A stretch of DNA of 64,000 bases, from assembly GCA_945787445.1 (NCBI GenBank), contig CALZHT010000024.1:2398-66397 (forward strand), written 5' to 3'. Below, in pieces: positions 7,957-60,719 of the stretch. Made by a program: the position numbers and the translations under genes. This DNA is from an uncultured Desulfobulbaceae bacterium (GTDB lineage Bacteria; Desulfobacterota; Desulfobulbia; Desulfobulbales; CALZHT01). The notes beneath the pieces are model-generated. The model had not been told where the DNA came from and did not search any database. It was given only the letters and a program-made list of their open reading frames with translations. Numbering within the stretch: the first letter of the stretch is position 1; each line of letters starts with the position of its first letter.

Positions 7957-9420
7957 CTACTCCATGATAAAAGACTGGATGGCTGGTATTTCTGCTTTAA
8001 TCCAGTCTCTTACGTCTTGATCCAAGATATTTTCTGCCGGGGAATCCAGAACCTGTTTAACATAGGCGGTTGCCCGCTGCCAGGCGTCGGCGGAGCCTGC
8101 ATTCTGCCACTGTGAGCGGGTGTCACGGTCACTGAGTTGTGGGCGGTACTGCTCGGTACGCATATACTTTCTGGTATGTCTTGAGGAGACAAAATGACCG
8201 CCAGGCCCTGCCTTTTTAATTTCATCAAAGGCAATGGTCCGGTCGGTGACTTCGATTCCTTCCACGGCTCGCATTACCATGCCGATTATCTCATTATCGA
8301 CAACCAACTTGTCAAAAGACGCTGTCATGCAGAATTCGACAAAACCGGCAGCGTCATGAATAAAATTAGCCCCGGCCAGAGCAACCAGGGTTGAGGTGAT
8401 AGCTGATTCATAACCGGCCTGGGCATCAATCACTTTGGAGTCGGTCATACCGGCGGTTGCATAAAACGGCAGCTTATAGAACTGGGCCATCTGAGCCCCT
8501 GCCGCGTTCATCAAACCCATCTCAACAGCGCCGGACAGGTATTTCATGTCACGCAGATCGGTGATTGATGATATACAGCCGTAAATAGCGGGACAGCCGG
8601 AATTAAAAAGCTGGGTCATGATGATGCCGGCCAGGGTGTCGACATTCTGGACGACCAAGTTGCCGGCCAGGGTAATAGGGGCGGTGGCGCCGCACAAAGG
8701 TTCGGCAGGCACCACAATCGGGATTGAATTTTTGGCCGCTTCCACCGCCAGCATGCCATAGCTTTCATCAAGCTTAAAGGGACTAATTGGGCAGGCAACC
8801 ATGGAGATGAATGGCTTTTGGCGCAAAGCTTCAGGCGAACCGGCGATTTTTTCAGCCATGTGGATGACATTACGCACCCCATCCACGGTATAAACGCCGC
8901 CCATGATATGTTTGTTGGTGCTGTTTAAGGCAGCGCCAAAACGGTTTACATCAATTTCTTCCACCGGCAGATCGCTGGGATAGACGTTCAACATGTAAAA
9001 GTGGATGTTGTTCAGACTCTCCACCATCCGAGCCATATTCCTGACGTCTTTGAGCTGTGCACGCCGAGCAGTAGCACTGCCGGCCTCCTGAACATTCAGA
9101 GCGGTGCCGCCTGTGCCCATGTAGACCTTGGTTCCGCCTATTACAAGGTCATGTTCACCGAAAGGATCTCTGCTGTGTAGAACAATCGATTCAGGGACTT
9201 CTGCCAGAAGCCTTTTAACCTGATCGGCTTTTAGTTTAACTATATTTGTTTTATGATCAATCTCGGCTCCGGCCTCCTGAAAAGCGGCAAGGGCCTCAGG
9301 GTAATTAACTTGAATGCCGACTTCCTCGAAGACCTGCATGGAAGCCTGATGGATCTTGACAATATCTATTTCTGTCAGTGGCTTATAGGCGCCACCGTGA
9401 AGACCTTTTCTCGATTTCAT
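7957..9420 (-). CDS. MttB-superfamily methyltransferase (non-pyrrolysine), paralog 1
   Basis: 487 aa, homologous throughout to the 5610-7142 product. No amber codon. Confidence 0.8.
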   Translation of the reverse strand: MKSRKGLHGGAYKPLTEIDIVKIHQASMQVFEEVGIQVNYPEALAAFQEAGAEIDHKTNIVKLKADQVKRLLAEVPESIVLHSRDPFGEHDLVIGGTKVYMGTGGTALNVQEAGSATARRAQLKDVRNMARMVESLNNIHFYMLNVYPSDLPVEEIDVNRFGAALNSTNKHIMGGVYTVDGVRNVIHMAEKIAGSPEALRQKPFISMVACPISPFKLDESYGMLAVEAAKNSIPIVVPAEPLCGATAPITLAGNLVVQNVDTLAGIIMTQLFNSGCPAIYGCISSITDLRDMKYLSGAVEMGLMNAAGAQMAQFYKLPFYATAGMTDSKVIDAQAGYESAITSTLVALAGANFIHDAAGFVEFCMTASFDKLVVDNEIIGMVMRAVEGIEVTDRTIAFDEIKKAGPGGHFVSSRHTRKYMRTEQYRPQLSDRDTRSQWQNAGSADAWQRATAYVKQVLDSPAENILDQDVRDWIKAEIPAIQSFIME

Positions 9421-10998: not shown

Positions 10999-11150
10999 AC
11001 TCTATTCTTACCAGCAAGAGTCAAGCAAAGACGCGACCCCTTTTTTCTTGAGTCAAGCAAAGACGCGACCCCTTTTTTCTTACTTTTTTTTACTTACCAT
11101 TTTTGATACCAGCAAGAGTCAAGCAAAGACGCGACCCCTTTTGTAGTCAA
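10999..11150. repeat. Three direct copies of a 28-34-bp unit (ccagcaagagtcaagcaaagacgcgacccctttt) abutting the truncated IS30 gene
   Basis: Direct repeats read at 11008-11045, 11049-11080 and 11104-11141 with irregular spacing. They lie adjacent to an AT-rich island (10390-10990) that also carries 2x aataacaagttgcatag. Confidence 0.6.
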
Positions 11151-11460
11151 TAAAAAGACGCTGTGATATTTCTTCCGGTGACCATTGTTTTCTAAGCCTT
11201 GCTTCCACATACCGTACCAGACGCAGATTTTTCTTTCTGCGGTAATGCCGTGCCTTGCAAACTCTCTTTTTAGCTAAAGGTTGGCTCCAGTCATACCAAT
11301 AGATAGCGATTGGATATCGTGAATTCGCTCGTTTCAGTTCGCGGCTGATTGTTGAGTGGTGACGATTCAAGCGTCGTGCTATTTCTCGCAAACTAAATCC
11401 AGCTACCTTTAAATGGCTGATGACATATCGTTCTCGTTCGGTTAAATGGGTGTAGGACAT
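11119..11460 (-). pseudogene. IS30-family transposase, N-terminal HTH fragment only (113 aa of an expected ~340)
   Basis: MSYTHLTERERYVISHLKVAGFSLREIARRLNRHHSTISRELKR is the IS30 HTH_38 N-terminus. The ORF terminates where the tandem repeats begin. Confidence 0.65.
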
Positions 11461-15962: not shown

Positions 15963-16290
15963 CATAAAAAGTCTAAAAACCGAATTTGGTCGACGGGAGT
16001 TCATTAATTTATGAGCAGAATACCCGTCGGCGGAGTGCTTTTTACGAAGTCGACAATTTATACAGGTCAGCTTTTATCGGCTTCATGTTAGGATAATTTA
16101 GTAATTAGGAATTATTCTTGTTTAGTATATTATTTATTTGCCATCTATATGTCAACTTTTTTCCAAAAGATATTGTCTTACTCTCGAGTAAAGATGAATC
16201 ATATTAGTCATATCCAGAAACGTTTCAGCCCGGCATTCGTATTGATGCCAACCGTTAGGAAAATAACCACCATTTCATAACCAACTTTTG

Positions 16291-16365
16291 ATGAAATCGT
16301 AAAAATACGATTTCATCGATGTATTGCGTTGTAACTAGTTGAAATTGCATGGCACGTTAACCGCT
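16291..16365 (+). promoter_or_regulatory. Perfect palindrome (ATGAAATCGTA-AAAA-TACGATTTCAT, putative enhancer/UAS) followed 34 bp later by a sigma-54-type -24/-12 element TGGCAC-gttaa-CCGCT, oriented toward the AAA ATPase gene
   Basis: GG-N10-GC spacing is canonical. The same composite element recurs at 40495-40690 and, inverted, at 41247-41475. Confidence 0.5.
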
Positions 16366-16557
16366 TTCCAGACTTTTTACGGGTAGGTCAATGATTGATT
16401 CTGGATAACGTAAACGGGATTGTTTGTCAACAGGGGAGGAATTTCGGGTGTGGTTCCCATTACCATGAGAAGTCAAATGCAGGTTTTACCATTGGTGGAT
16501 AATTTGGTTTATATTTGGGTGCATATTTGTCAGGTAATACAAAAAGGAGCCGTTGTT

Positions 16558-16770
16558 GTGAACAAGAAAGGTGCGCAGAAAAAACACAAAGACATCTCAA
16601 CGATTGACCAGGAATCGAAAAGAACGCGTGGCTGGTATGTCAGGGTTCATCATTGCTGCAAGACCTTTGCGAAGTTTTTTTCTGATATGTGTTTATTTCG
16701 GGCACACCCGCTAAACTCGATACTTCGCAAAAGGGGATTTTTCTCCTATGCACGTGTTTTCGGGCAATGA
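16558..16770 (+). CDS. Small basic hypothetical protein (70 aa), possible first gene downstream of the sigma-54 promoter
   Basis: GTG start 8 nt after aaaaaggag. The product VNKKGAQKKHKDISTIDQESKRTRGWYVRVHHCCKTF... has no recognisable family. Confidence 0.25.
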   Translation: MNKKGAQKKHKDISTIDQESKRTRGWYVRVHHCCKTFAKFFSDMCLFRAHPLNSILRKRGFFSYARVFGQ

Positions 16771-18617: not shown

Positions 18618-20021
18618 TTACTCGGCGTCACCTTTGTCAAAACCATACCTGTCCAATTTGTAGCGGAGGGCACGGTAGGTGATCCCCAGGAGTTCTGCGG
18701 CCTTGGTCTTGTTGCCCTGCGTCTCATCAAGCGCGCGGACAATCAGATACTTCTCAACATGCTCAAAATTATTATCCAAACGCAGGTTTTCACCAAAGGC
18801 AACTTCTTTTGCCAGTATATCTTCTCCGGAAAGATGAGGCAGGAGTTGCGAGGAATGGATCCATGGACCGTCTGTCATGATGACCGCTCTTTCAATTATG
18901 TTCTCCAGTTCTCTTACGTTTCCGGGCCAGTCATAGCTCATCAGCAACAGGATGGCTTCGGTGGTAAATCCTTTGATGTCCTTATTGTTTTCCTTGACAT
19001 ACTTTCTTAGTAAATGCTCCGCGAGTAGCGGGATGTCTTCTTTGCGCTCACGCAGAGGCGCAAGATAGATGGGCAGGACATTGAGTCTGTAGTACAAGTC
19101 TTCCCGGAAATTTCCTTTCTTTATTTCTTCGTACAGGTCCTTGTTAGAAGCAGCAATGACCCGGACGTCCGCACTGATGGTCTGGTTGCCCCCCACCCGT
19201 TCAAAATTTCTCTCCTGCAAAAAGCGAAGCAGGCTGACTTGTACACCTGCATCAATCTCCGAAACTTCATCGATAAACAAAGTCCCATTGTGGGCTGCCT
19301 CAAACTTTCCTATTTTGGTTGTTTGGGCTCCGGTAAAAGCGCCTTTCTCATAGCCAAAAATTTCGCTGGCCAGTAGGCTTTCCGGAATAGAAGAACAGGT
19401 CAGCGTCACAAAGGGACCATTTTTTCGCAGGCTGTTGTAGTGGATGGCGCTTGCTACCATCTGCTTGCCGGTGCCGCTTTCACCCAGGATCAAGACCGTG
19501 GCATTGGTCGCTGCAACCTTCTCAATATTCTGATAGACCTCCTGCATTTTGTAGCTTTTGCCGATGATGTTGCCAAATGAATGCCGTAAATAAAGCTCCT
19601 GGCGGAGCGTATCGATTTCCTGTTGCAGCCTTTTCTTTTCCAGAGCCTTTTCGAGGTATATGAGTAGTTCATCCAAATTCAACGGCTTGGTAAGGTAATC
19701 ATAAATGCCCCGTTTCATGGCATCGACTGCCTGCTGTATAGTGCCAAAGGCTGTCATGACAATAATCTGCACATCGGGCGCCTTTTCCTGCAGTGCATCG
19801 ACCAGGGAAAGATTGGACAACCCTTTCATTTTCATATCCGTGAGGATGACGTCAACAACAACTTCTGAAAGGAGCTCTATGGCCCGGTCGCCATTTGCCG
19901 CAGCATGCACTTCATAGCCGCGTCGGGTCAGGAAATCCGTTATCCCCTGGCGGAGATGGGCCTCGTCTTCAATGACCATAATGGCGCCCTTTTCTGTTGC
20001 TGTTTTTTCTACTTTATCCAT
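18618..20021 (-). CDS. Sigma-54-dependent response regulator (NtrC family: receiver + AAA+ sigma-54 activator + Fis-type HTH)
   Basis: Receiver with D54-equivalent (ILTDMKM), GESGTGK, GAFTGA and ESELFGYEKGAFTGA motifs, and a C-terminal HTH. Confidence 0.9.
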   Translation of the reverse strand: MDKVEKTATEKGAIMVIEDEAHLRQGITDFLTRRGYEVHAAANGDRAIELLSEVVVDVILTDMKMKGLSNLSLVDALQEKAPDVQIIVMTAFGTIQQAVDAMKRGIYDYLTKPLNLDELLIYLEKALEKKRLQQEIDTLRQELYLRHSFGNIIGKSYKMQEVYQNIEKVAATNATVLILGESGTGKQMVASAIHYNSLRKNGPFVTLTCSSIPESLLASEIFGYEKGAFTGAQTTKIGKFEAAHNGTLFIDEVSEIDAGVQVSLLRFLQERNFERVGGNQTISADVRVIAASNKDLYEEIKKGNFREDLYYRLNVLPIYLAPLRERKEDIPLLAEHLLRKYVKENNKDIKGFTTEAILLLMSYDWPGNVRELENIIERAVIMTDGPWIHSSQLLPHLSGEDILAKEVAFGENLRLDNNFEHVEKYLIVRALDETQGNKTKAAELLGITYRALRYKLDRYGFDKGDAE

Positions 20022-22383
20022 GACACATACCTCCTTTGACCGGCAGTTTCACGATAACACAGGTGCCTTTGCCGACCTCACTCTCTATTTCAATGGTGCC
20101 GTCATGCTGTTCAATAATCAACTGCGTCAAGGGCAGGCCGACGCCCATGCCTCCTTCCTTAGTACTGAAATGAAAGTCAAAGGCATGTCTGATCTCTTCC
20201 GGCGTTATCCCGCTGCCGCTATCAATCACCCTGATCACACTCCATTCTTTATCCCTCTGGAACTCTATCATGATTTCAGAGGAATCAGGCATGGCATCCA
20301 TCGCGTTTTGCAGGATGTTTGCAAGGGCCAGGGTGAGCCGCTCTCGATCACACTCGATACATATTTGTTCAGGGGGTGCTGCAATTTTTACTTCCCCGCT
20401 CTTCATTTCCAGGGCCGTTCGAACTCTGTACAAAGCGCCATGCACAATATCCTCAAGAATGCACGGAATCGGTTTCAACTTTGTTTCGTGCGGGACCATG
20501 GATCGGACAAATTTTTCCAAGAAGCGATTCAATCGCTGAATTTCAGAAGCAATAATTGAAAAGTATTGTGCAGGGCCATTACTTGCAGTGGCCTCTATTC
20601 TGCATTCGTCTTCAAGATTTTTTAAATTCACATCAATGGAAGCAAGAGGATTTCTGATCTCATGGGCCAACCCGGCCGCCAACTGGCTCACGGCCGCCAG
20701 TTTTTCTGATACGACCAGACGCCTTTCCAGACGCTTCTTTGCCTGATTTGCCGCTATCACCCCTGTCATGTCCTGGGCCACACAGACGATACCCTCAATT
20801 TTTCCCCCTTCATTGCGCATGGCGGAACTTGAGAAAGAGACGGGAACTCTCCGGCCATCCTTGCCGATATAGGTCATTTCAGCGGAACGGATATTACATT
20901 GCTTCGCGCCATTCTCAACAGGTAGCCCATGCTCAATAATTTTTTCAACCGGCCGGCCGATAAGTTCCTCTTTCTCGTATCCCAGTAACAGGCAGATAGC
21001 ATCATTCACCGTACGGATGGTGCCGGAGGGAGAAATAACGAAGAGGGTGTCGCACATGGTGCTGAGGATATCGTCGGTATATTCTTTTGCACTGATAATT
21101 TCCTCTTGTGATTGCTGCAGGGTTTCGGCCATTTTATCAAAGGACCGGGCCAGTTGTCCCAACTCATCCTTGGCCTGTAGGCCGATGCGGTGGTCGAGCT
21201 GTCCCATACCGACCATCTCTGTCCCCTTGGTGAGCTGTCTGAGGGGCATGATAACTCCTCTGACCAGATTGAACATGAAGAAGCCGATTATGGAAAGCAC
21301 GATACCTGACACAAATACCCCTTCCAGCCCCGCCATAGTGGTCATTGTCAGCAGCCTTTGCATCGCTTGGTCTATGTCTTGGTGGGCATACTCTATCTCC
21401 TGCCGGACATTGCGCAACAGGGTCAGTTCAACGAAAGGATGAAGCTTGGTTTCAACAAACGCCATCAGTTCTTGCGGTTGATCGTTCTTCTTTTTGGTAA
21501 TGGTTTGGGCAGCCATAAAATGGAAGGTTTGGTGATGTTTCTCAAGATCGACAATCCTTTGCAAGGTGTTTCCATTAGCGCTTTCCCAGCCGAGTGCGTT
21601 GCGATTTGTCAAGGCTTTGGTCAAGGCCTGCATGTTAGTTTTTGCATCCAGACCATGTTCTTCGAATGCTCCCAGCTCTCTTTCCTGACCCGACACCTGA
21701 TAATCCATTAATTCCCGGAACTGCATGCAAATGTTCACAAACACCTTGTCCGCCCTGAGGAAATATTCAATGGAGTTACGGGCCACATTGATATGCTTGA
21801 TAACTCTTCTGGACCCCCAGGGAGCATTCCCTATTTTCAGCAGGACATTATTGAAAGCAGTATTAACATCGTTCAATTCATTCGTCTCAGCCGCATCAAT
21901 CTCCTGAGACAACACATGGTTGATCCAGCGTTCCACCGTTTCTTCCAGGATGTCGTAGGCAGCTTCCTTTTCCCCGGCATCGGCAAGGTTAAAGGCCTGA
22001 TCCACTGTTTTTTTGACTTCACTGTACTTACGCTCTACTTCTGCAGCCAAGGCAATATCAAATTGTTCATCTTCTCCGAGCTCGCTCCGTCTCTCTATTG
22101 CTGCCACCCAGGCAGCGTGGGCCTCATCAACCAGAGCGGCTGTTTCATCAATGGCTCTTTTCTTCTGATTATTTTGATAAAAAAGATAGTCCATGGTCCG
22201 AGTGATATGCGTGACAATGGCTGCCCGTGTTTTCAGCACTGCATGCAGTTCGTCAAGGGCGGCTGCGGCAGAGTGTATCTGCAGGTGGGCCTCTCTGCTG
22301 TCCCAGAACATTTTGGCCGCAAACAGGATAAACAGCATGAGAATAACAGATAATATGACGACAAGTTTCCCTTTAATGCTCAT
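20014..22383 (-). CDS. Sensor histidine kinase (periplasmic sensor, HAMP, PAS, HisKA, HATPase_c)
   Basis: N-terminal TM, long periplasmic region and a second TM. H-box LAHEIRNPL and G-boxes DSGSGI / GGMGVGL. Overlaps the RR gene by 8 nt. Confidence 0.85.
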   Translation of the reverse strand: MSIKGKLVVILSVILMLFILFAAKMFWDSREAHLQIHSAAAALDELHAVLKTRAAIVTHITRTMDYLFYQNNQKKRAIDETAALVDEAHAAWVAAIERRSELGEDEQFDIALAAEVERKYSEVKKTVDQAFNLADAGEKEAAYDILEETVERWINHVLSQEIDAAETNELNDVNTAFNNVLLKIGNAPWGSRRVIKHINVARNSIEYFLRADKVFVNICMQFRELMDYQVSGQERELGAFEEHGLDAKTNMQALTKALTNRNALGWESANGNTLQRIVDLEKHHQTFHFMAAQTITKKKNDQPQELMAFVETKLHPFVELTLLRNVRQEIEYAHQDIDQAMQRLLTMTTMAGLEGVFVSGIVLSIIGFFMFNLVRGVIMPLRQLTKGTEMVGMGQLDHRIGLQAKDELGQLARSFDKMAETLQQSQEEIISAKEYTDDILSTMCDTLFVISPSGTIRTVNDAICLLLGYEKEELIGRPVEKIIEHGLPVENGAKQCNIRSAEMTYIGKDGRRVPVSFSSSAMRNEGGKIEGIVCVAQDMTGVIAANQAKKRLERRLVVSEKLAAVSQLAAGLAHEIRNPLASIDVNLKNLEDECRIEATASNGPAQYFSIIASEIQRLNRFLEKFVRSMVPHETKLKPIPCILEDIVHGALYRVRTALEMKSGEVKIAAPPEQICIECDRERLTLALANILQNAMDAMPDSSEIMIEFQRDKEWSVIRVIDSGSGITPEEIRHAFDFHFSTKEGGMGVGLPLTQLIIEQHDGTIEIESEVGKGTCVIVKLPVKGGMCHG

Positions 22384-23677: not shown

Positions 23678-23801
23678 AAACCTCCTTGGACAGCGACATA
23701 GAATGAGCAATGTCCCTCATGTGCCATCGCTCTTACTCCTTGTCTTTATGACCTAGTAGATTGCCATATCCGTGCCAAACTGTAACTAATTGATATTGTA
23801 G
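23678..23801 (-). promoter_or_regulatory. Conserved ~125-nt leader with a sigma-54-type promoter (minus strand TGGCAC-ggata-TGGCA at 23762-23777) and RBS, upstream of the ATP-grasp gene. Paralogous to 24793-24913.
   Basis: About 80% identical to the region upstream of the lipoprotein gene. GG-N10-GC spacing is canonical, and the RBS AAGGAGG is conserved. Confidence 0.5.
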
Positions 23802-23998
23802 TGTTTTGTGTTTTTAGTTTTTGCTTGCCATGAAGGTTGTTTCATAGCGTCACCCTCTGATTATGAAAAAGATTTCATAGTTGGGTTGAGAAACGAAACC
23901 CAACCTACCTTGCTGAAGTATATCAATAGTTAGAAATAAAAAAGGGCGGGAAGAGACCCGCCCTTGATGACATCCGCATTTATGCGGTTCAATATATG

Positions 23999-24792: not shown

Positions 24793-24913
24793 AACCTCCT
24801 TGGACAGTGACATAGAATGAGCAGTGTCCTGCACGTGCCATCACTATTACTCCTGCCTCTTATTACATAGTGGTGCCATATCCGTGCCAAACTGTAACTA
24901 TTTGATATTGTAG
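24793..24913 (-). promoter_or_regulatory. Second copy of the conserved sigma-54 leader (minus strand TGGCAC-ggata-TGGCA at 24874-24889), upstream of the lipoprotein gene
   Basis: See 23678-23801. Confidence 0.5.
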
Positions 24914-25442
24914 AATGAAATGTTTTTTACCTGACAAAACATGAAGAATGCTTCATAGCTTTACGCGGCAACTATGAAAAACATTTCATAGTGGGGATGA
25001 GGAAGAGGGAACTGCTACTTGCTGAGGAAAATAACTACAGGAGGCATTTAGGCGCTCTGCGCCAAAAGATAACAAATAAATTTGTTATGCTGTGTTTTAT
25101 ATTGTTAAATCAAGCAATTACTTGCCATAAATTTAGCTCTGACTTTAATAGCGGCGTAGGCGCGTTTAATAAGCCGGCTTCACTGATATAGTAAACGAGA
25201 AGCAACTGGGTAATTGTCTTGCTTCAAGATAATTTCCGGCTCAGCCGGCTTATGTATGGAACCAAAGGAATAAAGGGATTGCGGGATAAAAAAAAGCAGA
25301 GCCTTTATGACTCTGCCTTCTTGGAAACGATGAATTCCAAATTATTTCTTCTTTCTTCTGATTGTCGTTCCTGCCAGGACGATTATTTTTTTATCGTTGA
25401 GTCTTTTCTTTATATGGCATCTACTAGTAGCGCCGGATTCTA

Positions 25443-33897: not shown

Positions 33898-34015
33898 ATT
33901 AAAAAGGCCGAGCGTACCCAAAGAATAAACCTTCGGCAGCTCGGCCATCCGCACCTTGCGGATCCGCAACTTTCCTCCCCATTCTCACGAAGGGTTTGGC
34001 TTTATCGGGTATGAT
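33898..34015 (-). repeat. About 118-nt sRNA-like element copy 1: minus-strand hairpins ending in GGCCGAGC...GCTCGGCC + TTTTT, i.e. terminator-capped
   Basis: About 75% identical to 34563-34680. The 24-nt core cacgaagggtttggctttatcggg is perfectly conserved. Confidence 0.45.
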
Positions 34016-34562: not shown

Positions 34563-34680
34563 AAAAAAGCCGGGCAAATCCAAAGTATTACCTTCGGCAG
34601 CCCGGCCATACGCCTGAGGCGTACCCGTTGCTTTCCGCCCCCTTCTTACGAAGGGTTTGGCTTTATCGGGAAATTGTATT
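34563..34680 (-). repeat. sRNA-like element copy 2, upstream of the glyoxalase gene
   Basis: See 33898-34015. Its terminator hairpin reads GGCCGGGCTGCCGAAGG...GCCCGGC + TTTTTT on the minus strand. Confidence 0.45.
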
Positions 34681-38087: not shown

Positions 38088-38164
<77 letters not shown>

Positions 38165-38665
38165 CTGCAATGAACACGATTAGCGAGCCCATTCCCAGTC
38201 CCGCTTCAGCGGGACTGCGGGGTTAGCGAGCGAATGAAAAAATAGTTAGAAGGTATCTTACGTACTGAGATTGTCTGCTCACTACGTTGCGCGGACGTGA
38301 AGATTCCATACACGAAAAGGGTCCGGAAGCAATTCCAGGTTGATATTTTTAAATTAGTTGTTCAAATTCCCCGCGGCTTTTTGTAGCGAAGCGGAAATCC
38401 CGCTTAGACGGGGCCGCGGGGAGCTTCAATTTTTAAACTAACCTATTTCCGTGTGTCCAATGCATGGTGTTTTGGTCGCATTTTGGAAGAGTCATAATCC
38501 CTACCTTACTACATGCCCTAATTTCCTTCGTGAAGAGTCAAGTGCGCCCAGAGGAAGTCGTTGGTAGGCCAACGTGCCGGGATGGAGAAAGAGAAATTTC
38601 TCCCCACCAGATTATCGCCTGTAACTCTCCCGGCGATGTTCCGCCGCGGTCATTATGACAATGTC

Positions 38666-38896
38666 TTATTCACGGTTTATTTGATAGAAGAACCGGTAAG
38701 CGCCAATGCGATAACGCCAAATGGGCGGATCAAAATTAAGCAGTTTTTTGATATTGGCGCCGAAATCAGGCGACTTTTTCAATTGAGGATATACATACTC
38801 CCGCAACTTCTTCTTAATCTTTTCGCGTCGGCCTTCGAAGTCCCTTTCCAAATCAGATAGAAAACCGTCTGTCTCGAAAATTCTATACATCGACAA
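38666..38896 (-). CDS. RelE/ParE-superfamily toxin
   Basis: 76 aa ending ...IWRYRIGAYRFFYQI, typical of RelE/YoeB-like toxins. Overlaps the upstream antitoxin gene by 14 nt. Confidence 0.7.
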   Translation of the reverse strand: MSMYRIFETDGFLSDLERDFEGRREKIKKKLREYVYPQLKKSPDFGANIKKLLNFDPPIWRYRIGAYRFFYQINRE

Positions 38897-39128
38897 ACGA
38901 GCCTTTCATCTTTTCTATTTCCTTTGCGCCTCGCTTCAGGCGTTTCATCAGCACCGGATTGGCAAGGATTTCCTCCATTTCTATCTCATCCACAAAGGAT
39001 TCCTCGTCAAGTTTCTGCAGGGCCAGGAAACTTATCAGGTTGGAAATGGATCGTTTTACACTGCCGGCAGCCCTGGAGAGTTTTTCATATTCTTCGTCGG
39101 ATAGACGAAGGGTAATGGTTTTGGGCAT
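38883..39128 (-). CDS. Ribbon-helix-helix antitoxin
   Basis: MPKTITLRLSDEEYEKLSRAA is an RHH β-strand/helix signature. Cognate upstream partner of the toxin. Confidence 0.65.
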   Translation of the reverse strand: MPKTITLRLSDEEYEKLSRAAGSVKRSISNLISFLALQKLDEESFVDEIEMEEILANPVLMKRLKRGAKEIEKMKGSFVDV

Positions 39129-40494: not shown

Positions 40495-40690
40495 TGATGA
40501 AATCGTAAAAAATACGATTTGTCTGCTTCGCGGACGCGTTAACCGTTATAAGTCCTTGCAATGAAATAGACGATAAGTTCAGCAACTGCTTTTAGTCATG
40601 TTATTGCCAGTTCAGCGATGTATTACCTTGTAACTGGTTGAAATTACATGGCACGTAACCGCTTTCCCGACTTTTTGCGGAATCATCATT
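40495..40690 (+). repeat. Left arm of a ~200-bp imperfect inverted repeat flanking the RRM gene. It contains a UAS-like palindrome remnant and a sigma-54-type element (40649-40664).
   Basis: Homologous to 16291-16385 (with a ~95-bp insertion) and to the reverse complement of 41247-41475 (~75%). Confidence 0.55.
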
Positions 40691-40957
40691 TTTGTCTTGT
40701 TGAATTAGTTTGTTCCGGAAAGGGTAAGCCTGGTTAAAGCTTTATAACGACGAAGTCGCATTTAACACAAAATTGCTGTAGTTCGCAATTTTGCGTAGGT
40801 CCTTGTTGAAGCAGCTAACTATTTTTATTGTAATTAAAATATTTGATATCTCGCAAATTCTTTACACGCCAATTTCGCAGCCGCGCAGCAATTCACGCCC
40901 AGGTTACATGCCGTCAAAGTTTCTGCAGATAACGTAAAACGTAAATAGGAGAATATT

Positions 40958-41224
40958 ATGAAACTGTATGTCGGCAACCTTCCATACGGCCTCAGCGAAA
41001 CAGAACTTACCGACCTTTTCACCCAATATGGGTCCGTGGTGAGCGCGAAAATTATTTCCGACCGTTACACCGGACAATCGAAAGGCTTCGGTTTTGTCGA
41101 GATGTCTGACCGGTCCGAAGGGCATAAGGCAATGGAGGAACTGAACGGCACCTCGGTCAGCAACCGCTCCCTTACCGTCAACGAGGCCCGCCCGCAGAAA
41201 AAGAGGAGTTCAAACCGCTGGTAA
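40958..41224 (+). CDS. RRM-type RNA-binding protein (glycine-poor, 88 aa)
   Basis: RNP-2 LYVGNL and RNP-1 KGFGFVEM motifs with an aggagaatatt RBS. Confidence 0.9.
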   Translation: MKLYVGNLPYGLSETELTDLFTQYGSVVSAKIISDRYTGQSKGFGFVEMSDRSEGHKAMEELNGTSVSNRSLTVNEARPQKKRSSNRW

Positions 41225-41246
41225 TCGATTGGTTCCCCATTTTTGA

Positions 41247-41475
41247 CATTTCCGCAAGAATTCGGGAAAGCGGTTAATGTGCCATGTAATTTCAAGGACT
41301 TACACCGTGCCCTGAGTGCAAGCGAAGAAATCCTCTTGGGGATATTACAACGATGAACTGGTATAAGTACTGCTAGAAATCCAAGCTGCGCTTATCGCCC
41401 GATTCATCACAAGGGGTCATGGCGGTTAACGCGTCCGCGCAGCAGACAATTCGTAGTTTTTACGAATGCATCATT
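41247..41475 (-). repeat. Right arm of the inverted repeat, carrying an inward-facing (antisense to the RRM gene) sigma-54-type element at 41269-41284
   Basis: Minus-strand read catGGCACattaaCCGCTttcc with GG-N10-GC spacing. Also carries the gcggacgcgttaaccg and cgtaaaaactacgaat modules shared with the left arm. Confidence 0.5.
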
Positions 41476-41760
41476 TTTTTTAAGTAATGTCCCACTGGCC
41501 ATTGACCACCTTGCAGGCTGAATTTCCAGGTGCAAAATAGGTAGGTTCGAGTGGACCTGAAAACAGTTCTGAAGGGTGCATATCGCTGCCTTAACCTGCG
41601 CTTGCCTTCTTTCACCTGACACCCATTTCCGGTTTATTCACTTTATTTCGTCATAAAAACAGGAAAATTACCCGGCCGTCTTGCCGATGCAATGTTAATG
41701 TGCTCGGCAGTCGGGACCAATGTCCTGTTTTTTTAACACAGTTCACAGAGAGGAATTTTA

Positions 41761-43107
41761 ATGAGTTTTACAGAATTTAATTTTAACAGCCAAATAACCG
41801 CCGGGATTCGGGCCTGCGGCTATACTTCACCTACTCCGATCCAACAACAAGCGATCCCGCAAATTCTCGAGGGACAAGACCTGATGGGACTTGCACAGAC
41901 AGGAACGGGCAAAACCGCTGCTTTTGTGCTGCCTATCCTGCAGCGTCTTATGAAAGGGCCGCGGCGCACAATACGTGCCTTGATCGTTGCCCCGACCCGG
42001 GAACTGGCTGAACAGATTCATGAGAATATTTTCAACTTGGGCAAGAAAACCGGGCTGCGCAGTGTTGCAGTTTATGGTGGAGTCAGCAAATTCGGACAGA
42101 TCAAGAAAATCAGGTCCGGGGTGGAAATTGTAGTCGCCTGTCCGGGCAGATTGCTCGATCACCTTGATGACGGTGCTATTAACCTGGCAAAGGTCGAGAT
42201 GCTTGTTCTGGATGAGTCTGATATTATGTTCGATATGGGCTTTATGCCGGCCATCCGTCGGATACTGAAACGCTTACCGCAACAGCGGCAGACCCTGCTT
42301 TTTTCCGCCACCATGCCGGGGGCGATCAGGCAGCTGGCCCACGAGGTCTTGAAGAATCCGGCAACCGTTCAGATAGGTCATTCAAAACCGGTGGCAACTG
42401 TATCTCATGTTCTCTATTCCGTGGAGCGGCAACATAAGACAGCGTTGTTGAAAAGCATCATCAACCAAAAAAACATGGAGACCACCCTGGTTTTTACCCG
42501 CACAAAGCATGGCGCCCGAAACCTTGCCCACCATTTACAGAAGGCGGGCTATAGAGCGACATCATTGCAAGGCAACCTGTCCCAACAAAAAAGGCGTCAG
42601 GCGCTCGATGGCTTCAAACAGGGCAAATTCAAAATTCTGGTGGCCACGGATATTGCGGCACGAGGCATAGACGTTTCCGGCATATCGCACGTGGTCAACT
42701 ATGACATGCCCAATACCGCCGATGCTTACACGCACCGGATCGGCCGCACCGGTAGGGCCTCCTGCACCGGAGAGGCCTGCACCTTTGCCGGCCGTGAAGA
42801 TAGAAGAATGGTCAAGATCATCGAGCGATCCCTTGGCAGCAAAATAAAATGGCAATCGGCAACCATTGTAAAAGGCCAGGTTCCAGTAGATGACACCATG
42901 GTCGCGGCTCCTCGGCGTCATGACCGGGTCAGGAAAAACAATGACACCGGTAATTGCCGTCCCCAAAAGCAAAGGAATCAACAAGATCAAACAACATCCG
43001 GCAAAGTGCGGAGAAGGCGGCGGGTTTTTCCATTCGGCTTTCCCATGGAATGCGAAATGCCCCAGATCCCGCAACGTCGAAAGCGGCCGCAAGCAAACAA
43101 CAGATAA
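41761..43107 (+). CDS. rhlE: DEAD-box ATP-dependent RNA helicase (RhlE-like) with a basic C-terminal tail
   Basis: Q-motif, AQTGTGKT, PTRELA, DE(S/A)D, SAT and HRIGRTGRA motifs. Confidence 0.85.
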   Translation: MSFTEFNFNSQITAGIRACGYTSPTPIQQQAIPQILEGQDLMGLAQTGTGKTAAFVLPILQRLMKGPRRTIRALIVAPTRELAEQIHENIFNLGKKTGLRSVAVYGGVSKFGQIKKIRSGVEIVVACPGRLLDHLDDGAINLAKVEMLVLDESDIMFDMGFMPAIRRILKRLPQQRQTLLFSATMPGAIRQLAHEVLKNPATVQIGHSKPVATVSHVLYSVERQHKTALLKSIINQKNMETTLVFTRTKHGARNLAHHLQKAGYRATSLQGNLSQQKRRQALDGFKQGKFKILVATDIAARGIDVSGISHVVNYDMPNTADAYTHRIGRTGRASCTGEACTFAGREDRRMVKIIERSLGSKIKWQSATIVKGQVPVDDTMVAAPRRHDRVRKNNDTGNCRPQKQRNQQDQTTSGKVRRRRRVFPFGFPMECEMPQIPQRRKRPQANNR

Positions 43108-47516: not shown

Positions 47517-47789
47517 TTAATATCTCGGTCTGCGTTTCGGACGATCTTCCCGTGGCCGCGCTTGATTGACCTTGATGTTTCTTCCTTTTACCGCAGTGCC
47601 GTCCAGAGATTTGATGGCCTCTTCCGCCTCGGCCTGGGTGGGCATTTCAATGAAGCCAAAGCCTTTTGACTGGCCGTTATATTTATCTTTAATGATAATG
47701 GCTTCCGATACTTCACCGTACTCGGCAAAAACGTCTTTCAACTCCTCCTCAGTCAAGCTGTAGGACAAGTTCCCTGCATAAATCTTCAT
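47517..47789 (-). CDS. RRM-type RNA-binding protein (90 aa), second paralog
   Basis: RNP-2 IYAGNL and RNP-1 KGFGFIEM motifs. Confidence 0.9.
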   Translation of the reverse strand: MKIYAGNLSYSLTEEELKDVFAEYGEVSEAIIIKDKYNGQSKGFGFIEMPTQAEAEEAIKSLDGTAVKGRNIKVNQARPREDRPKRRPRY

Positions 47790-60665: not shown

Positions 60666-60719
60666 GGCACTTTTCTGTAACTCCTTGAAATTACATTTCG
60701 AACTCAGGAGTTCTGAATT

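What the first reader, a model, noticed from the sequence alone, without database searches (positions are those of the whole stretch)
40495..41475. RRM RNA-binding protein gene bracketed by ~200-bp inverted-repeat arms that each carry a sigma-54-type promoter
The left arm (40495-40690) and right arm (41247-41475, inverted) are about 75% identical. They share the UAS-like module, a gcggacgcgttaaccg module and a TGGCAC...CCGCT element. The left promoter points into the rbp gene through a ~300-nt leader, and the right one points back into it from downstream. If active, the right promoter would make an antisense RNA covering the whole rbp mRNA. Alternatively the arms are the ends of a composite mobile unit that captured the rbp gene. 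I am not aware of either arrangement being described for bacterial rbp genes.
Basis: seen in the sequence. Interest (0 to 1): 0.7.

Follow-up and report, generated by a model that had tools for sequence, protein, structure and literature searches.

The report
Small dispersed repeat flanking rbp gene
The two "arms" around this RNA-binding-protein gene are real, but they are two separately inserted copies of a small repeat that resembles a miniature transposon (a third copy lies 24 kb away), not a conserved part of the gene's regulation, so the arrangement is probably incidental.

Summary
The inverted repeat is real. L is 40495-40688 (+) and R is 41244-41473 (-). They are about 76-80% identical, with blastn E 8e-18 and 6e-13. 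They flank an 88-aa RRM gene (40958-41224).

Three results change the interpretation.
1. A third, internally deleted copy (C3, 16289-16390) lies upstream of unrelated DNA. All copies share sharp TG...CA ends and imperfect 17-bp terminal inverted repeats.
2. The closest syntenic ortholog locus (L081, Rbp 86% identical, rbp then DEAD-box helicase) lacks R. The stop codon lies about 37 nt from the conserved helicase leader there, against about 265 nt here. None of eight related rbp loci has either arm.
3. Related rbp genes share a sigma-70-like promoter and a conserved leader. The leader maps downstream of L.

The sigma-54-like box has correct GG-N10-GC spacing in R and C3. L has a 1-nt spacer deletion (GG-N9-GC).

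Best reading: a lineage-specific MITE-like repeat, or "putative mobile promoter", inserted twice near rbp. Antisense transcription from R remains possible but untested. A composite unit that captured rbp is not supported. Genome-wide copy number could not be measured.

The parts
40495..40688 (+). Copy L of the repeat (194 bp), from TGATGAAATCGTAAAAA to TTTTTGCGGAATCATCA
   Evidence: nhmmer E 1.5e-63. Terminal inverted repeat matches 13/17, P about 1e-4. Flanks are unrelated to those of the other copies.
41244..41473 (-). Copy R of the repeat (230 bp), inverted, inserted between the rbp stop codon and the conserved helicase leader. It carries a 35-37-nt block absent from L (about 41305-41341).
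   Evidence: It is absent from the syntenic ortholog L081, which serves as an empty site. TIR 10/17, P about 4e-3.
16289..16390 (+). Copy C3 (102 bp). It is an internal-deletion derivative that keeps both termini and the sigma-54-like core.
   Evidence: (89% over 71 nt and 96% over 28 nt to L). TIR 12/17, P about 2e-4. It is identical in a second assembly of the same organism.
40649..40663 (+). Sigma-54-like box of L, TGGCACGTAACCGCT. GG and GC are separated by 9 nt, one short of canonical.
   Evidence: Read from the sequence and the alignment. It is not matched by the canonical-spacing pattern.
41269..41284 (-). Sigma-54-like box of R, TGGCACATTAACCGCT (GG-N10-GC). The inferred start is near 41258 on the - strand, reading into the rbp 3' end.
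   Evidence: The start-site position is an inference from -12 geometry.
16350..16365 (+). Sigma-54-like box of C3, TGGCACGTTAACCGCT (GG-N10-GC).
40500..40520 (+). Subterminal palindrome or hairpin of L, AAATCGTA-aaaaa-TACGATTT. Its counterparts are 41449-41467 in R (ATTCGTA-N5-TACGAAT) and 16290-16317 in C3.
   Evidence: One A-T to T-A double change in R keeps the palindrome (read from the alignment).
40958..41224 (+). rbp, a gene for an 88-aa single-RRM RNA-binding protein.
   Evidence: Pfam RRM_1 E 7e-23. Homologs occur across Desulfobulbales-type genomes.
40806..40957 (+). Candidate native sigma-70-type promoter (TTGAAG-N17-TGTAAT, 40806-40834), followed by the conserved rbp leader (blocks 40853-40863 and 40916-40926).
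   Evidence: Alignment with five ortholog leaders and complementary conserved blocks. The promoter assignment in the window is an inference.
41482..41760 (+). Conserved leader upstream of the DEAD-box helicase gene (41761-43107). It marks the right edge of the R insertion.
   Evidence: Alignment to L081. Helicase Pfam DEAD/Helicase_C.

Best explanation
The arms are two independent copies, in opposite orientation, of a lineage-specific, non-coding dispersed repeat of about 100-230 bp. [quoted passage not shown] It has sharp TG...CA ends, imperfect 17-bp terminal inverted repeats, a subterminal palindrome, and internal indel variants. Near one end it carries an outward-facing sigma-54-type -24/-12 box preceded by an A/T-rich IHF-like stretch. 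rbp sits at its ancestral position next to the DEAD-box helicase gene and has its own promoter and conserved leader. One copy landed upstream of that promoter (L) and one landed between rbp and the helicase leader (R). The bracketing is therefore most likely a by-product of two insertions into A/T-rich intergenic DNA, not an evolved regulatory architecture. Shown: homology, boundaries, the third copy, absence of R in the ortholog, and box geometry. Inferred: mobility (by a transposase acting in trans, or by recombination) and any promoter activity. If the box is active, only R and C3 have the correct spacing. R would then start an antisense RNA about 34 nt outside the rbp stop codon.
For: Three copies with identical start (TGATG) and end (TCA) and unrelated flanks. 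TIR matches are 13/17, 12/17 and 10/17, with P about 1e-4 to 4e-3. C3 retains both termini despite a roughly 95-nt internal deletion. R is missing from the syntenic locus L081, whose flanks align on both sides of the insertion. No arm-like sequence occurs in eight related rbp loci. The conserved sigma-70-like promoter and leader of related rbp genes correspond to window sequence downstream of L. Similarity between copies runs through the whole element at 76-85%, not only through short binding-site motifs. That pattern fits common descent, not convergent regulatory sites. The element is non-coding, with no shared stop-free frame, and matches no Rfam family. Families of similar 'putative mobile promoters' are documented, and the largest (93 copies) is in Desulfurivibrio alkaliphilus, a relative of this lineage (PMC3488235).
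Against: Only three copies could be seen, because I could not search the rest of the genome. Target-site duplications are ambiguous: R is flanked by T runs, L by TT/TTTTT, and C3 by nothing clear. No cognate transposase or autonomous element with the same ends was found in the window; the IS30 fragment at 11119-11460 is unrelated. No copies turned up in JGI metagenomes (only 4 chance hits in coding DNA), viral contigs, plasmids or phages. No empty site is available for L, because the L081 contig ends 185 nt upstream of rbp. The best-conserved part of the element is the sigma-54-like core, which could reflect selection for promoter function instead of transposition.
Confidence: 0.62

Rival explanations
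1. The copies are working sigma-54 promoter cassettes (palindromic activator site, IHF-like site, -24/-12 box) that wire unrelated genes to one enhancer-binding protein. L adds a second, long-leader promoter to rbp. R makes a regulated antisense RNA that represses rbp, or drives divergent regulation around the helicase. This reading is compatible with a mobile origin.
For: TGGCAC plus GC at canonical spacing in R and C3 (3 matches in the window against 0.46 expected). The core is the best-conserved part of the element. The organism uses sigma-54: an NtrC-type activator lies at 18618-20021, and there are two good TTGGCACGGATATGGCA promoters with upstream palindromes. L and C3 face downstream + strand ORFs. 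The palindrome is kept by a double change in R.
Against: L has a 1-nt spacer deletion; by established knowledge of sigma-54 promoters this normally abolishes function. The -12 element is CCGCT, not TTGCW. The palindrome-to-box distance varies from about 45 to about 135 to about 170 bp. R is absent in the closest ortholog, so antisense control is not a conserved feature of rbp. The ORF downstream of C3 is an orphan with no homologs. No transcript data are available.
Confidence: 0.22
2. A purely local rearrangement, meaning an inverted duplication of the rbp upstream region to the downstream side with no mobile element involved.
For: The two copies are only about 560 bp apart and inverted. No unambiguous target-site duplication is seen.
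Against: A third copy with the same exact termini lies 24 kb away in unrelated DNA, and it is closer to L (85%) than R is (76%). Both arms have the same sharp boundaries and terminal inverted repeats.
Confidence: 0.08
3. The arms are the ends of a composite transposon, or of an invertible segment (inverton), that carries rbp.
For: A gene flanked by inverted repeats is the formal architecture of both.
Against: rbp is in its ancestral place, because rbp -> helicase synteny exists without arms in L081 and L085. There is no transposase in the arms and no recombinase among the neighbours, which are OmpA-like, a toxin-antitoxin pair, the helicase and a cyclophilin. The arms are 76% identical with indels, which is poor for recombination. 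The whole promoter-plus-gene unit lies inside, so inversion would not switch rbp.
Confidence: 0.04

Closest known systems
Bacterial MITEs with regulatory cargo, e.g. Correia repeat enclosed elements (CREE) of Neisseria (PMC2649163; review PMC3184786)
   Same: Both are small non-coding elements of about 100-230 bp with terminal inverted repeats and size variants from internal indels. Both are intergenic and show presence/absence differences between related genomes. Both carry an IHF-like site and an outward-facing promoter-like sequence that can affect neighbouring genes in sense or antisense.
   Different: There is no sequence similarity to them. The TIRs here are short and imperfect (10-13 of 17). 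No clear target-site duplication is seen, whereas CREE duplicate TA. The promoter-like box is of the sigma-54 type instead of sigma-70. Copy number is known only as 3 in 64 kb.
Putative mobile promoters (Matus-Garcia et al. 2012, PMC3488235)
   Same: Homologous non-coding stretches of at least 50 nt at 80% identity or more lie upstream of non-homologous genes (L and C3: 71 nt at 89%). Such families are large in the related Desulfurivibrio alkaliphilus (93 members).
   Different: The copies lie about 180-290 nt upstream of the next start codon, outside that study's 150-nt window. One copy (R) lies downstream of a gene. Homology to the published families could not be checked because no supplementary sequences were held.
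Sigma-54 (RpoN)-dependent promoters with upstream activator sites
   Same: TGGCAC at -24 and GC at -12 with canonical spacing in two copies. An upstream palindrome and an A/T-rich IHF-like stretch are present. The genome encodes NtrC-type activators.
   Different: The -12 element is CCGCT. One copy has the wrong spacing. The palindrome distance is variable. Homology covers the whole 100-230 bp, not just the protein-binding sites. No evidence of transcription is available.
REP/REPIN and BIME elements
   Same: They are also dispersed intergenic repeats, sometimes with IHF sites.
   Different: REPs are GC-rich hairpins of about 20-40 nt. This element is A/T-rich (38-47% GC), much longer, and does not fold into a dominant hairpin (z -1.9 to -2.9).

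Membership tests
MITE (miniature inverted-repeat transposable element) | Small (<~600 bp) and non-coding | tested here: met
   Copies are 102, 194 and 230 bp. No stop-free frame is shared by the copies.
MITE (miniature inverted-repeat transposable element) | Terminal inverted repeats | tested here: met
   The first 17 nt against the reverse complement of the last 17 nt match at 13/17 (L), 12/17 (C3) and 10/17 (R), with P about 1e-4, 2e-4 and 4e-3 against random window 17-mers. All ends are TG...CA. The repeats are imperfect, and the three copies are not independent tests.
MITE (miniature inverted-repeat transposable element) | Target-site duplication flanking each copy | tested here: inconclusive
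   R is flanked by T runs on both sides (TTTTT / TTTTTTTT), L by TT / TTTTT, and C3 by nothing evident. The low-complexity flanks prevent a call.
MITE (miniature inverted-repeat transposable element) | Multiple dispersed copies in the genome | tested here: inconclusive
   Three copies in 64 kb, plus one marginal 22-nt fragment at 60675-60696.
MITE (miniature inverted-repeat transposable element) | Insertion polymorphism (filled versus empty site in relatives) | tested here: met
   R is absent from syntenic L081, and both flanks align. No empty site is available for L or C3.
MITE (miniature inverted-repeat transposable element) | Cognate autonomous IS with matching ends | not testable with these tools
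   None is present in the window; the IS30 fragment at 11119-11460 has unrelated ends. The whole genome would be needed.
Sigma-54-dependent promoter | GG (-24) and GC (-12) separated by exactly 10 nt | tested here: met
   Met in R (41269-41284 -) and C3 (16350-16365 +). Not met in L, where the spacing is 9 nt.
Sigma-54-dependent promoter | Full consensus TGGCAC-N5-TTGCW | tested here: not met
   The -24 half is perfect, but the -12 half is CCGCT in all copies. None is found by the consensus pattern with 1 mismatch.
Sigma-54-dependent promoter | Activator (bEBP) binding site upstream, and bEBP/sigma-54 encoded by the organism | tested here: inconclusive
   A palindrome is present in all copies, but about 45, 135 and 170 bp from the box. 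An NtrC-type EBP gene is in the window. rpoN itself is not in the window.
Sigma-54-dependent promoter | Mapped transcription start dependent on RpoN | not testable with these tools
   No expression data are available.
Putative mobile promoter (PMC3488235) | At least 50 nt at 80% identity or more, within about 150 nt upstream of non-homologous CDSs | tested here: not met
   The identity and length criterion is met (L against C3: 71 nt at 88.7%). The position criterion is not: the element ends lie about 270 nt (L) and about 170 nt (C3) upstream of the next start codon, and R is downstream of a gene.
Composite transposon | Flanking IS copies that encode a transposase, with the cargo displaced from its ancestral context | tested here: not met
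   The arms are non-coding. rbp -> helicase synteny is retained in L081 and L085 without arms.
Invertible segment (inverton) | Site-specific recombinase nearby, with both orientations observed | tested here: not met
   No recombinase is among the neighbouring ORFs. The second assembly only reaches 41300 and gives no orientation information. Orientation heterogeneity could not be tested.

The most novel reading that the evidence does not exclude
The element is a mobile sigma-54 promoter cassette: a miniature transposon whose cargo is an activator-dependent -24/-12 promoter with its own activator palindrome and IHF-like site. Each insertion would recruit neighbouring DNA into one enhancer-binding-protein regulon. 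Here the R copy would create a newly evolved, condition-dependent antisense RNA against a cold-shock-type rbp gene that the closest relative lacks.
Probability: 0.15. Interest if true: 0.6.

Novelty: new member of a known kind. Interest (0 to 1): 0.3.

Why it matters
If my reading is right, this is an ordinary case of small dispersed repeats landing in A/T-rich intergenic DNA. It matters mainly as a caution: symmetrical "architecture" around a gene can arise from two independent insertions. It would become more interesting only if the sigma-54-like box proves active. MITE-borne promoters described so far are of the sigma-70 type as far as I know. An activator-dependent promoter that spreads by transposition would give a direct way to watch regulon growth and the birth of an antisense RNA, because R is present here and absent in the nearest relative.

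Tried and rejected
- **Genome-contig scan with the Rbp protein.** None contained the box.
- **Metagenome scan with CATGGCACN{1,2}TAACCGCTTTCC.** It gave four hits, all chance matches inside coding sequence with no flanking similarity.
- **Viral contigs scan, and blastn of R against plasmids and phages.** Nothing was found.
- **Exact-protein look-ups of Rbp, the helicase and the OmpA-like protein.** None was on record.
- **Second assembly of the same organism (GCA_945787035.1).** It was reached through the orphan ORF and the cyclophilin. Its contig starts at window 41300, inside R. That assembly's other contig ends fall inside ordinary genes, so I do not count the break as evidence of repetitiveness.
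- **Protein search with a concatenate of all stop-free translations of the element.** The aim was to catch spurious ORFs called on other copies. No hit reached E <= 10.
- **Rfam at gathering and at permissive thresholds.** No family matched in the arms, the leader or the intergenic region.
- **Long-hairpin (REPIN or foldback) idea.** Folding gave only modest z-scores (-1.9 to -2.9) and no dominant hairpin.
- **IS200/IS605-type and Tc1/IS630-type insertion signatures.** There is no conserved target tetranucleotide and no TA duplication at the flanks.
- **IS30 transposase fragment at 11119-11460 as a possible partner.** Its ends and repeats are unrelated.

Full report
**1. Observation**

The region holds an 88-aa ORF (40958-41224, +), a single-RRM protein (Pfam RRM_1, E 7e-23). 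It is flanked by two homologous stretches in inverted orientation.
- The repeat finder reports arms 40495-40583 / 41385-41473 (89 nt, 80%), 40656-40682 / 41250-41276 (27 nt, 93%) and 40629-40654 / 41279-41304 (26 nt, 88%).
- The global alignment of left(+) against right(rc) has 79% mean column identity. R carries one block of 35-37 nt that L lacks.
- blastn E-values within the window are 7.6e-18 and 5.9e-13.
- The 16-mer GCGGACGCGTTAACCG is exact in both arms and unique to them.

The sigma-54-like box is TGGCACATTAACCGCT in R (GG-N10-GC). In L it is TGGCACGTAACCGCT, one base short.

**2. A third copy**

The canonical-spacing pattern also hits 16350-16365. Reading that region and running blastn and nhmmer shows a 102-bp copy, C3 (16289-16390, +).
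- C3 has the first ~25 nt of the element (96% to L) joined directly to its last ~75 nt (89% to L).
- It is an internal-deletion derivative that keeps both termini.
- Pairwise identities are 75.8% for L-R, 85.1% for L-C3 and 80.4% for R-C3.

All three copies begin with TGATG and end with TCA, and their flanks are unrelated. The first 17 nt match the reverse complement of the last 17 nt at 13/17 (L), 12/17 (C3) and 10/17 (R). The corresponding P values against random window 17-mers are about 1e-4, 2e-4 and 4e-3.

A subterminal palindrome is kept in all copies: AAATCGTA-N5-TACGATTT in L, ATTCGTA-N5-TACGAAT in R, and a longer form in C3. R shows one A-T to T-A double change that preserves it. No other copy exists in the 64 kb, apart from a marginal 22-nt fragment at 60675-60696 (E 0.055).

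**3. Comparison with related rbp loci**

Rbp homologs point to a Desulfobulbales-type organism; named hits include Desulfurivibrio, Desulfocapsa, Desulfobulbus and Electrothrix. I fetched eight loci with Rbp 69-86% identical (L081-L085 and L092-L094). None contains arm-like sequence (blastn).

L081 is the closest (86%) and is syntenic, with rbp followed by the DEAD-box helicase gene.
- In L081 the stop codon is ~37 nt from the conserved block CCCACTGGCCATTGACC. In the window it is ~265 nt away.
- Flanks align on both sides: GTTCCC... on the left and ...TTTAA.T...CCCACTGG on the right.
- R is therefore a ~230-bp insertion, or was precisely lost in L081.
- L085 also shows rbp -> helicase without any element.

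The L081 contig ends 185 nt upstream of rbp, so L has no empty-site test.

**4. The native rbp promoter and leader**

Seven of the eight related loci include upstream DNA (L094 has almost none).
- Six of them share a TTGCAA-like hexamer (TTGCCA in L085). About 16-18 nt further on lies an A/T-rich -10-like hexamer (L081-L085; L092).
- The same six share a conserved leader. Its blocks are GCAnATTCTTTTCACGTCA, GCCGTCAAAGTTTCTGC and CACTTAAAGGAGA. I did not inspect the upstream DNA of L093.
- The window has the leader blocks at 40853-40863 and 40916-40926, downstream of L.
- A candidate TTGAAG-N17-TGTAAT promoter lies at 40806-40834 (my inference).
- The two blocks are complementary, pairing GCAnA..CTTT with AAAG..T.TGC. 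The pairs are invariant, so there is no covariation evidence.

L is therefore not the ancestral rbp promoter.

**5. The sigma-54 question**

The organism plainly uses sigma-54.
- The window encodes an NtrC-type activator (18618-20021, -) next to a histidine kinase.
- Two good promoters, TTGGCACGGATATGGCA, lie at 23762-23777 and 24874-24889 (-). Each has a TATGAAA-N4-TTTCATA palindrome ~100 bp upstream.

Against that background, R and C3 have a perfect -24 half and correctly spaced GC, but CCGCT instead of TTGCW. L has the wrong spacing. The palindrome-to-box distance is ~45 bp in C3, ~135 bp in L and ~170 bp in R.

The box and the A/T-rich stretch before it form the best-conserved segment. On the other strand that stretch reads TTTCAA-N4-TTA, which is IHF-like (a resemblance I recalled, not a test). 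Function is therefore possible, but nothing here demonstrates it. If R is active, transcription would start near 41258 (-). It would enter rbp antisense after ~34 nt.

**6. What it is**

Similarity extends over the whole element. The copies have shared sharp termini with TIRs, indel variants, A/T-rich intergenic locations, both orientations, and a filled/empty difference with the nearest relative. Together these features fit a small non-autonomous dispersed repeat (MITE-like).

The element also matches the concept of "putative mobile promoters". The largest reported family of those (93 members) is in Desulfurivibrio alkaliphilus (PMC3488235).

The closest functional analogue is the Correia element of Neisseria. 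It combines inverted repeats, an IHF site and promoter generation at its ends (PMC2649163).

The element is not REP-like. It is A/T-rich at 38-47% GC, with fold z-scores of only -1.9 to -2.9 and no dominant hairpin. No Rfam family matches.

The composite-transposon and inverton readings fail for three reasons: synteny is retained, the arms are non-coding, and no recombinase is nearby.

**7. Limits**

- Copy number beyond the window is unknown.
- The metagenome scan found only chance matches.
- The viral, plasmid and phage searches were empty.
- A protein-space trick to find spurious ORFs on other copies found nothing.
- Target-site duplications are ambiguous.
- No partner transposase was identified.

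**8. Verdict**

The repeat is real and statistically solid. The arrangement is best explained by two insertions of a lineage-specific MITE-like element, a new member of a known kind. Its possibly active sigma-54-type box keeps a modest chance (~15-20%) of a more interesting story: a mobile activator-dependent promoter and a newly born rbp antisense RNA.

Noticed in passing
window 40853-40863 and 40916-40926 (rbp 5' leader): Two leader blocks, GCAAATTCTTT and AAAGTTTCTGC, are complementary to each other. They are conserved in the five ortholog loci of 69-86% Rbp identity that were aligned (L081-L085), enclosing about 50-60 nt. No Rfam family matches. This may be a conserved, possibly cold-responsive, rbp leader structure. 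The pairs are invariant, so there is no covariation.
   Followed up: partly
window 41482-41760: The long untranslated region upstream of the DEAD-box helicase gene is highly conserved with L081 (the CCCACTGGCCATTGACC...GAGTGGACCTG.AAACAGTTCTGAAGGGTG part). It is a likely structured helicase leader or a small RNA. No Rfam hit.
   Followed up: partly
window 23762-23777 and 24874-24889 (- strand), with palindromes near 23870-23890 and 24975-24995: Two near-identical sigma-54 promoters (TTGGCACGGATATGGCA), each with a TATGAAA-N4-TTTCATA palindrome about 100 bp upstream. They head consecutive genes (281-aa unknown; RimK-like ATP-grasp) of a cluster that ends in a histidine kinase and an NtrC-type activator (18618-22383).
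   Followed up: partly
window 16290-16317: The deletion junction of copy C3 creates a 12-bp-arm palindrome, GATGAAATCGTA-N4-TACGATTTCATC. Its outer half-sites, ATGAAA/TTTCAT, equal those of the neighbouring sigma-54 activator palindromes but are spaced 10 bp further apart. This may be coincidence or a fortuitous activator site.
   Followed up: no
window 16450-16770: The ORF downstream of C3 (annotated as a 106-aa protein in a public assembly) has no homolog except itself among 5.8 billion proteins. It contains a GWYVRV...KFFSD stretch reminiscent of AP2-type DNA-binding domains, but has no Pfam hit.
   Followed up: partly
window 47517-47789 (- strand): A second single-RRM gene (90 aa) lies 6 kb away, without any copy of the repeat.
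   Followed up: no
window 11119-11460 (-) and 11015-11140: A truncated IS30-type transposase N-terminus (113 aa, HTH_38) lies next to three direct repeats of about 28 nt (GAGTCAAGCAAAGACGCGACCCCTTTT).
   Followed up: partly
window 8349-8448 (-); 33931-34009 and 34592-34670 (-): Rfam finds a pyrrolysine insertion element of mttB (67 bits) and two c-di-GMP-I-GGC riboswitch aptamers about 660 nt apart.
   Followed up: no
window 60675-60696: A 22-nt stretch, CTGTAACTCCTTGAAATTACAT, matches the pre-box segment of the repeat (95% to R) but has no TGGCAC after it. It is either a remnant or chance (nhmmer E 0.055).
   Followed up: partly
window 38088-39128: A tRNA gene (38088-38161) is followed by a small RHH antitoxin / ParE-like toxin pair on the minus strand (38666-39128), about 1.4 kb upstream of copy L.
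   Followed up: no
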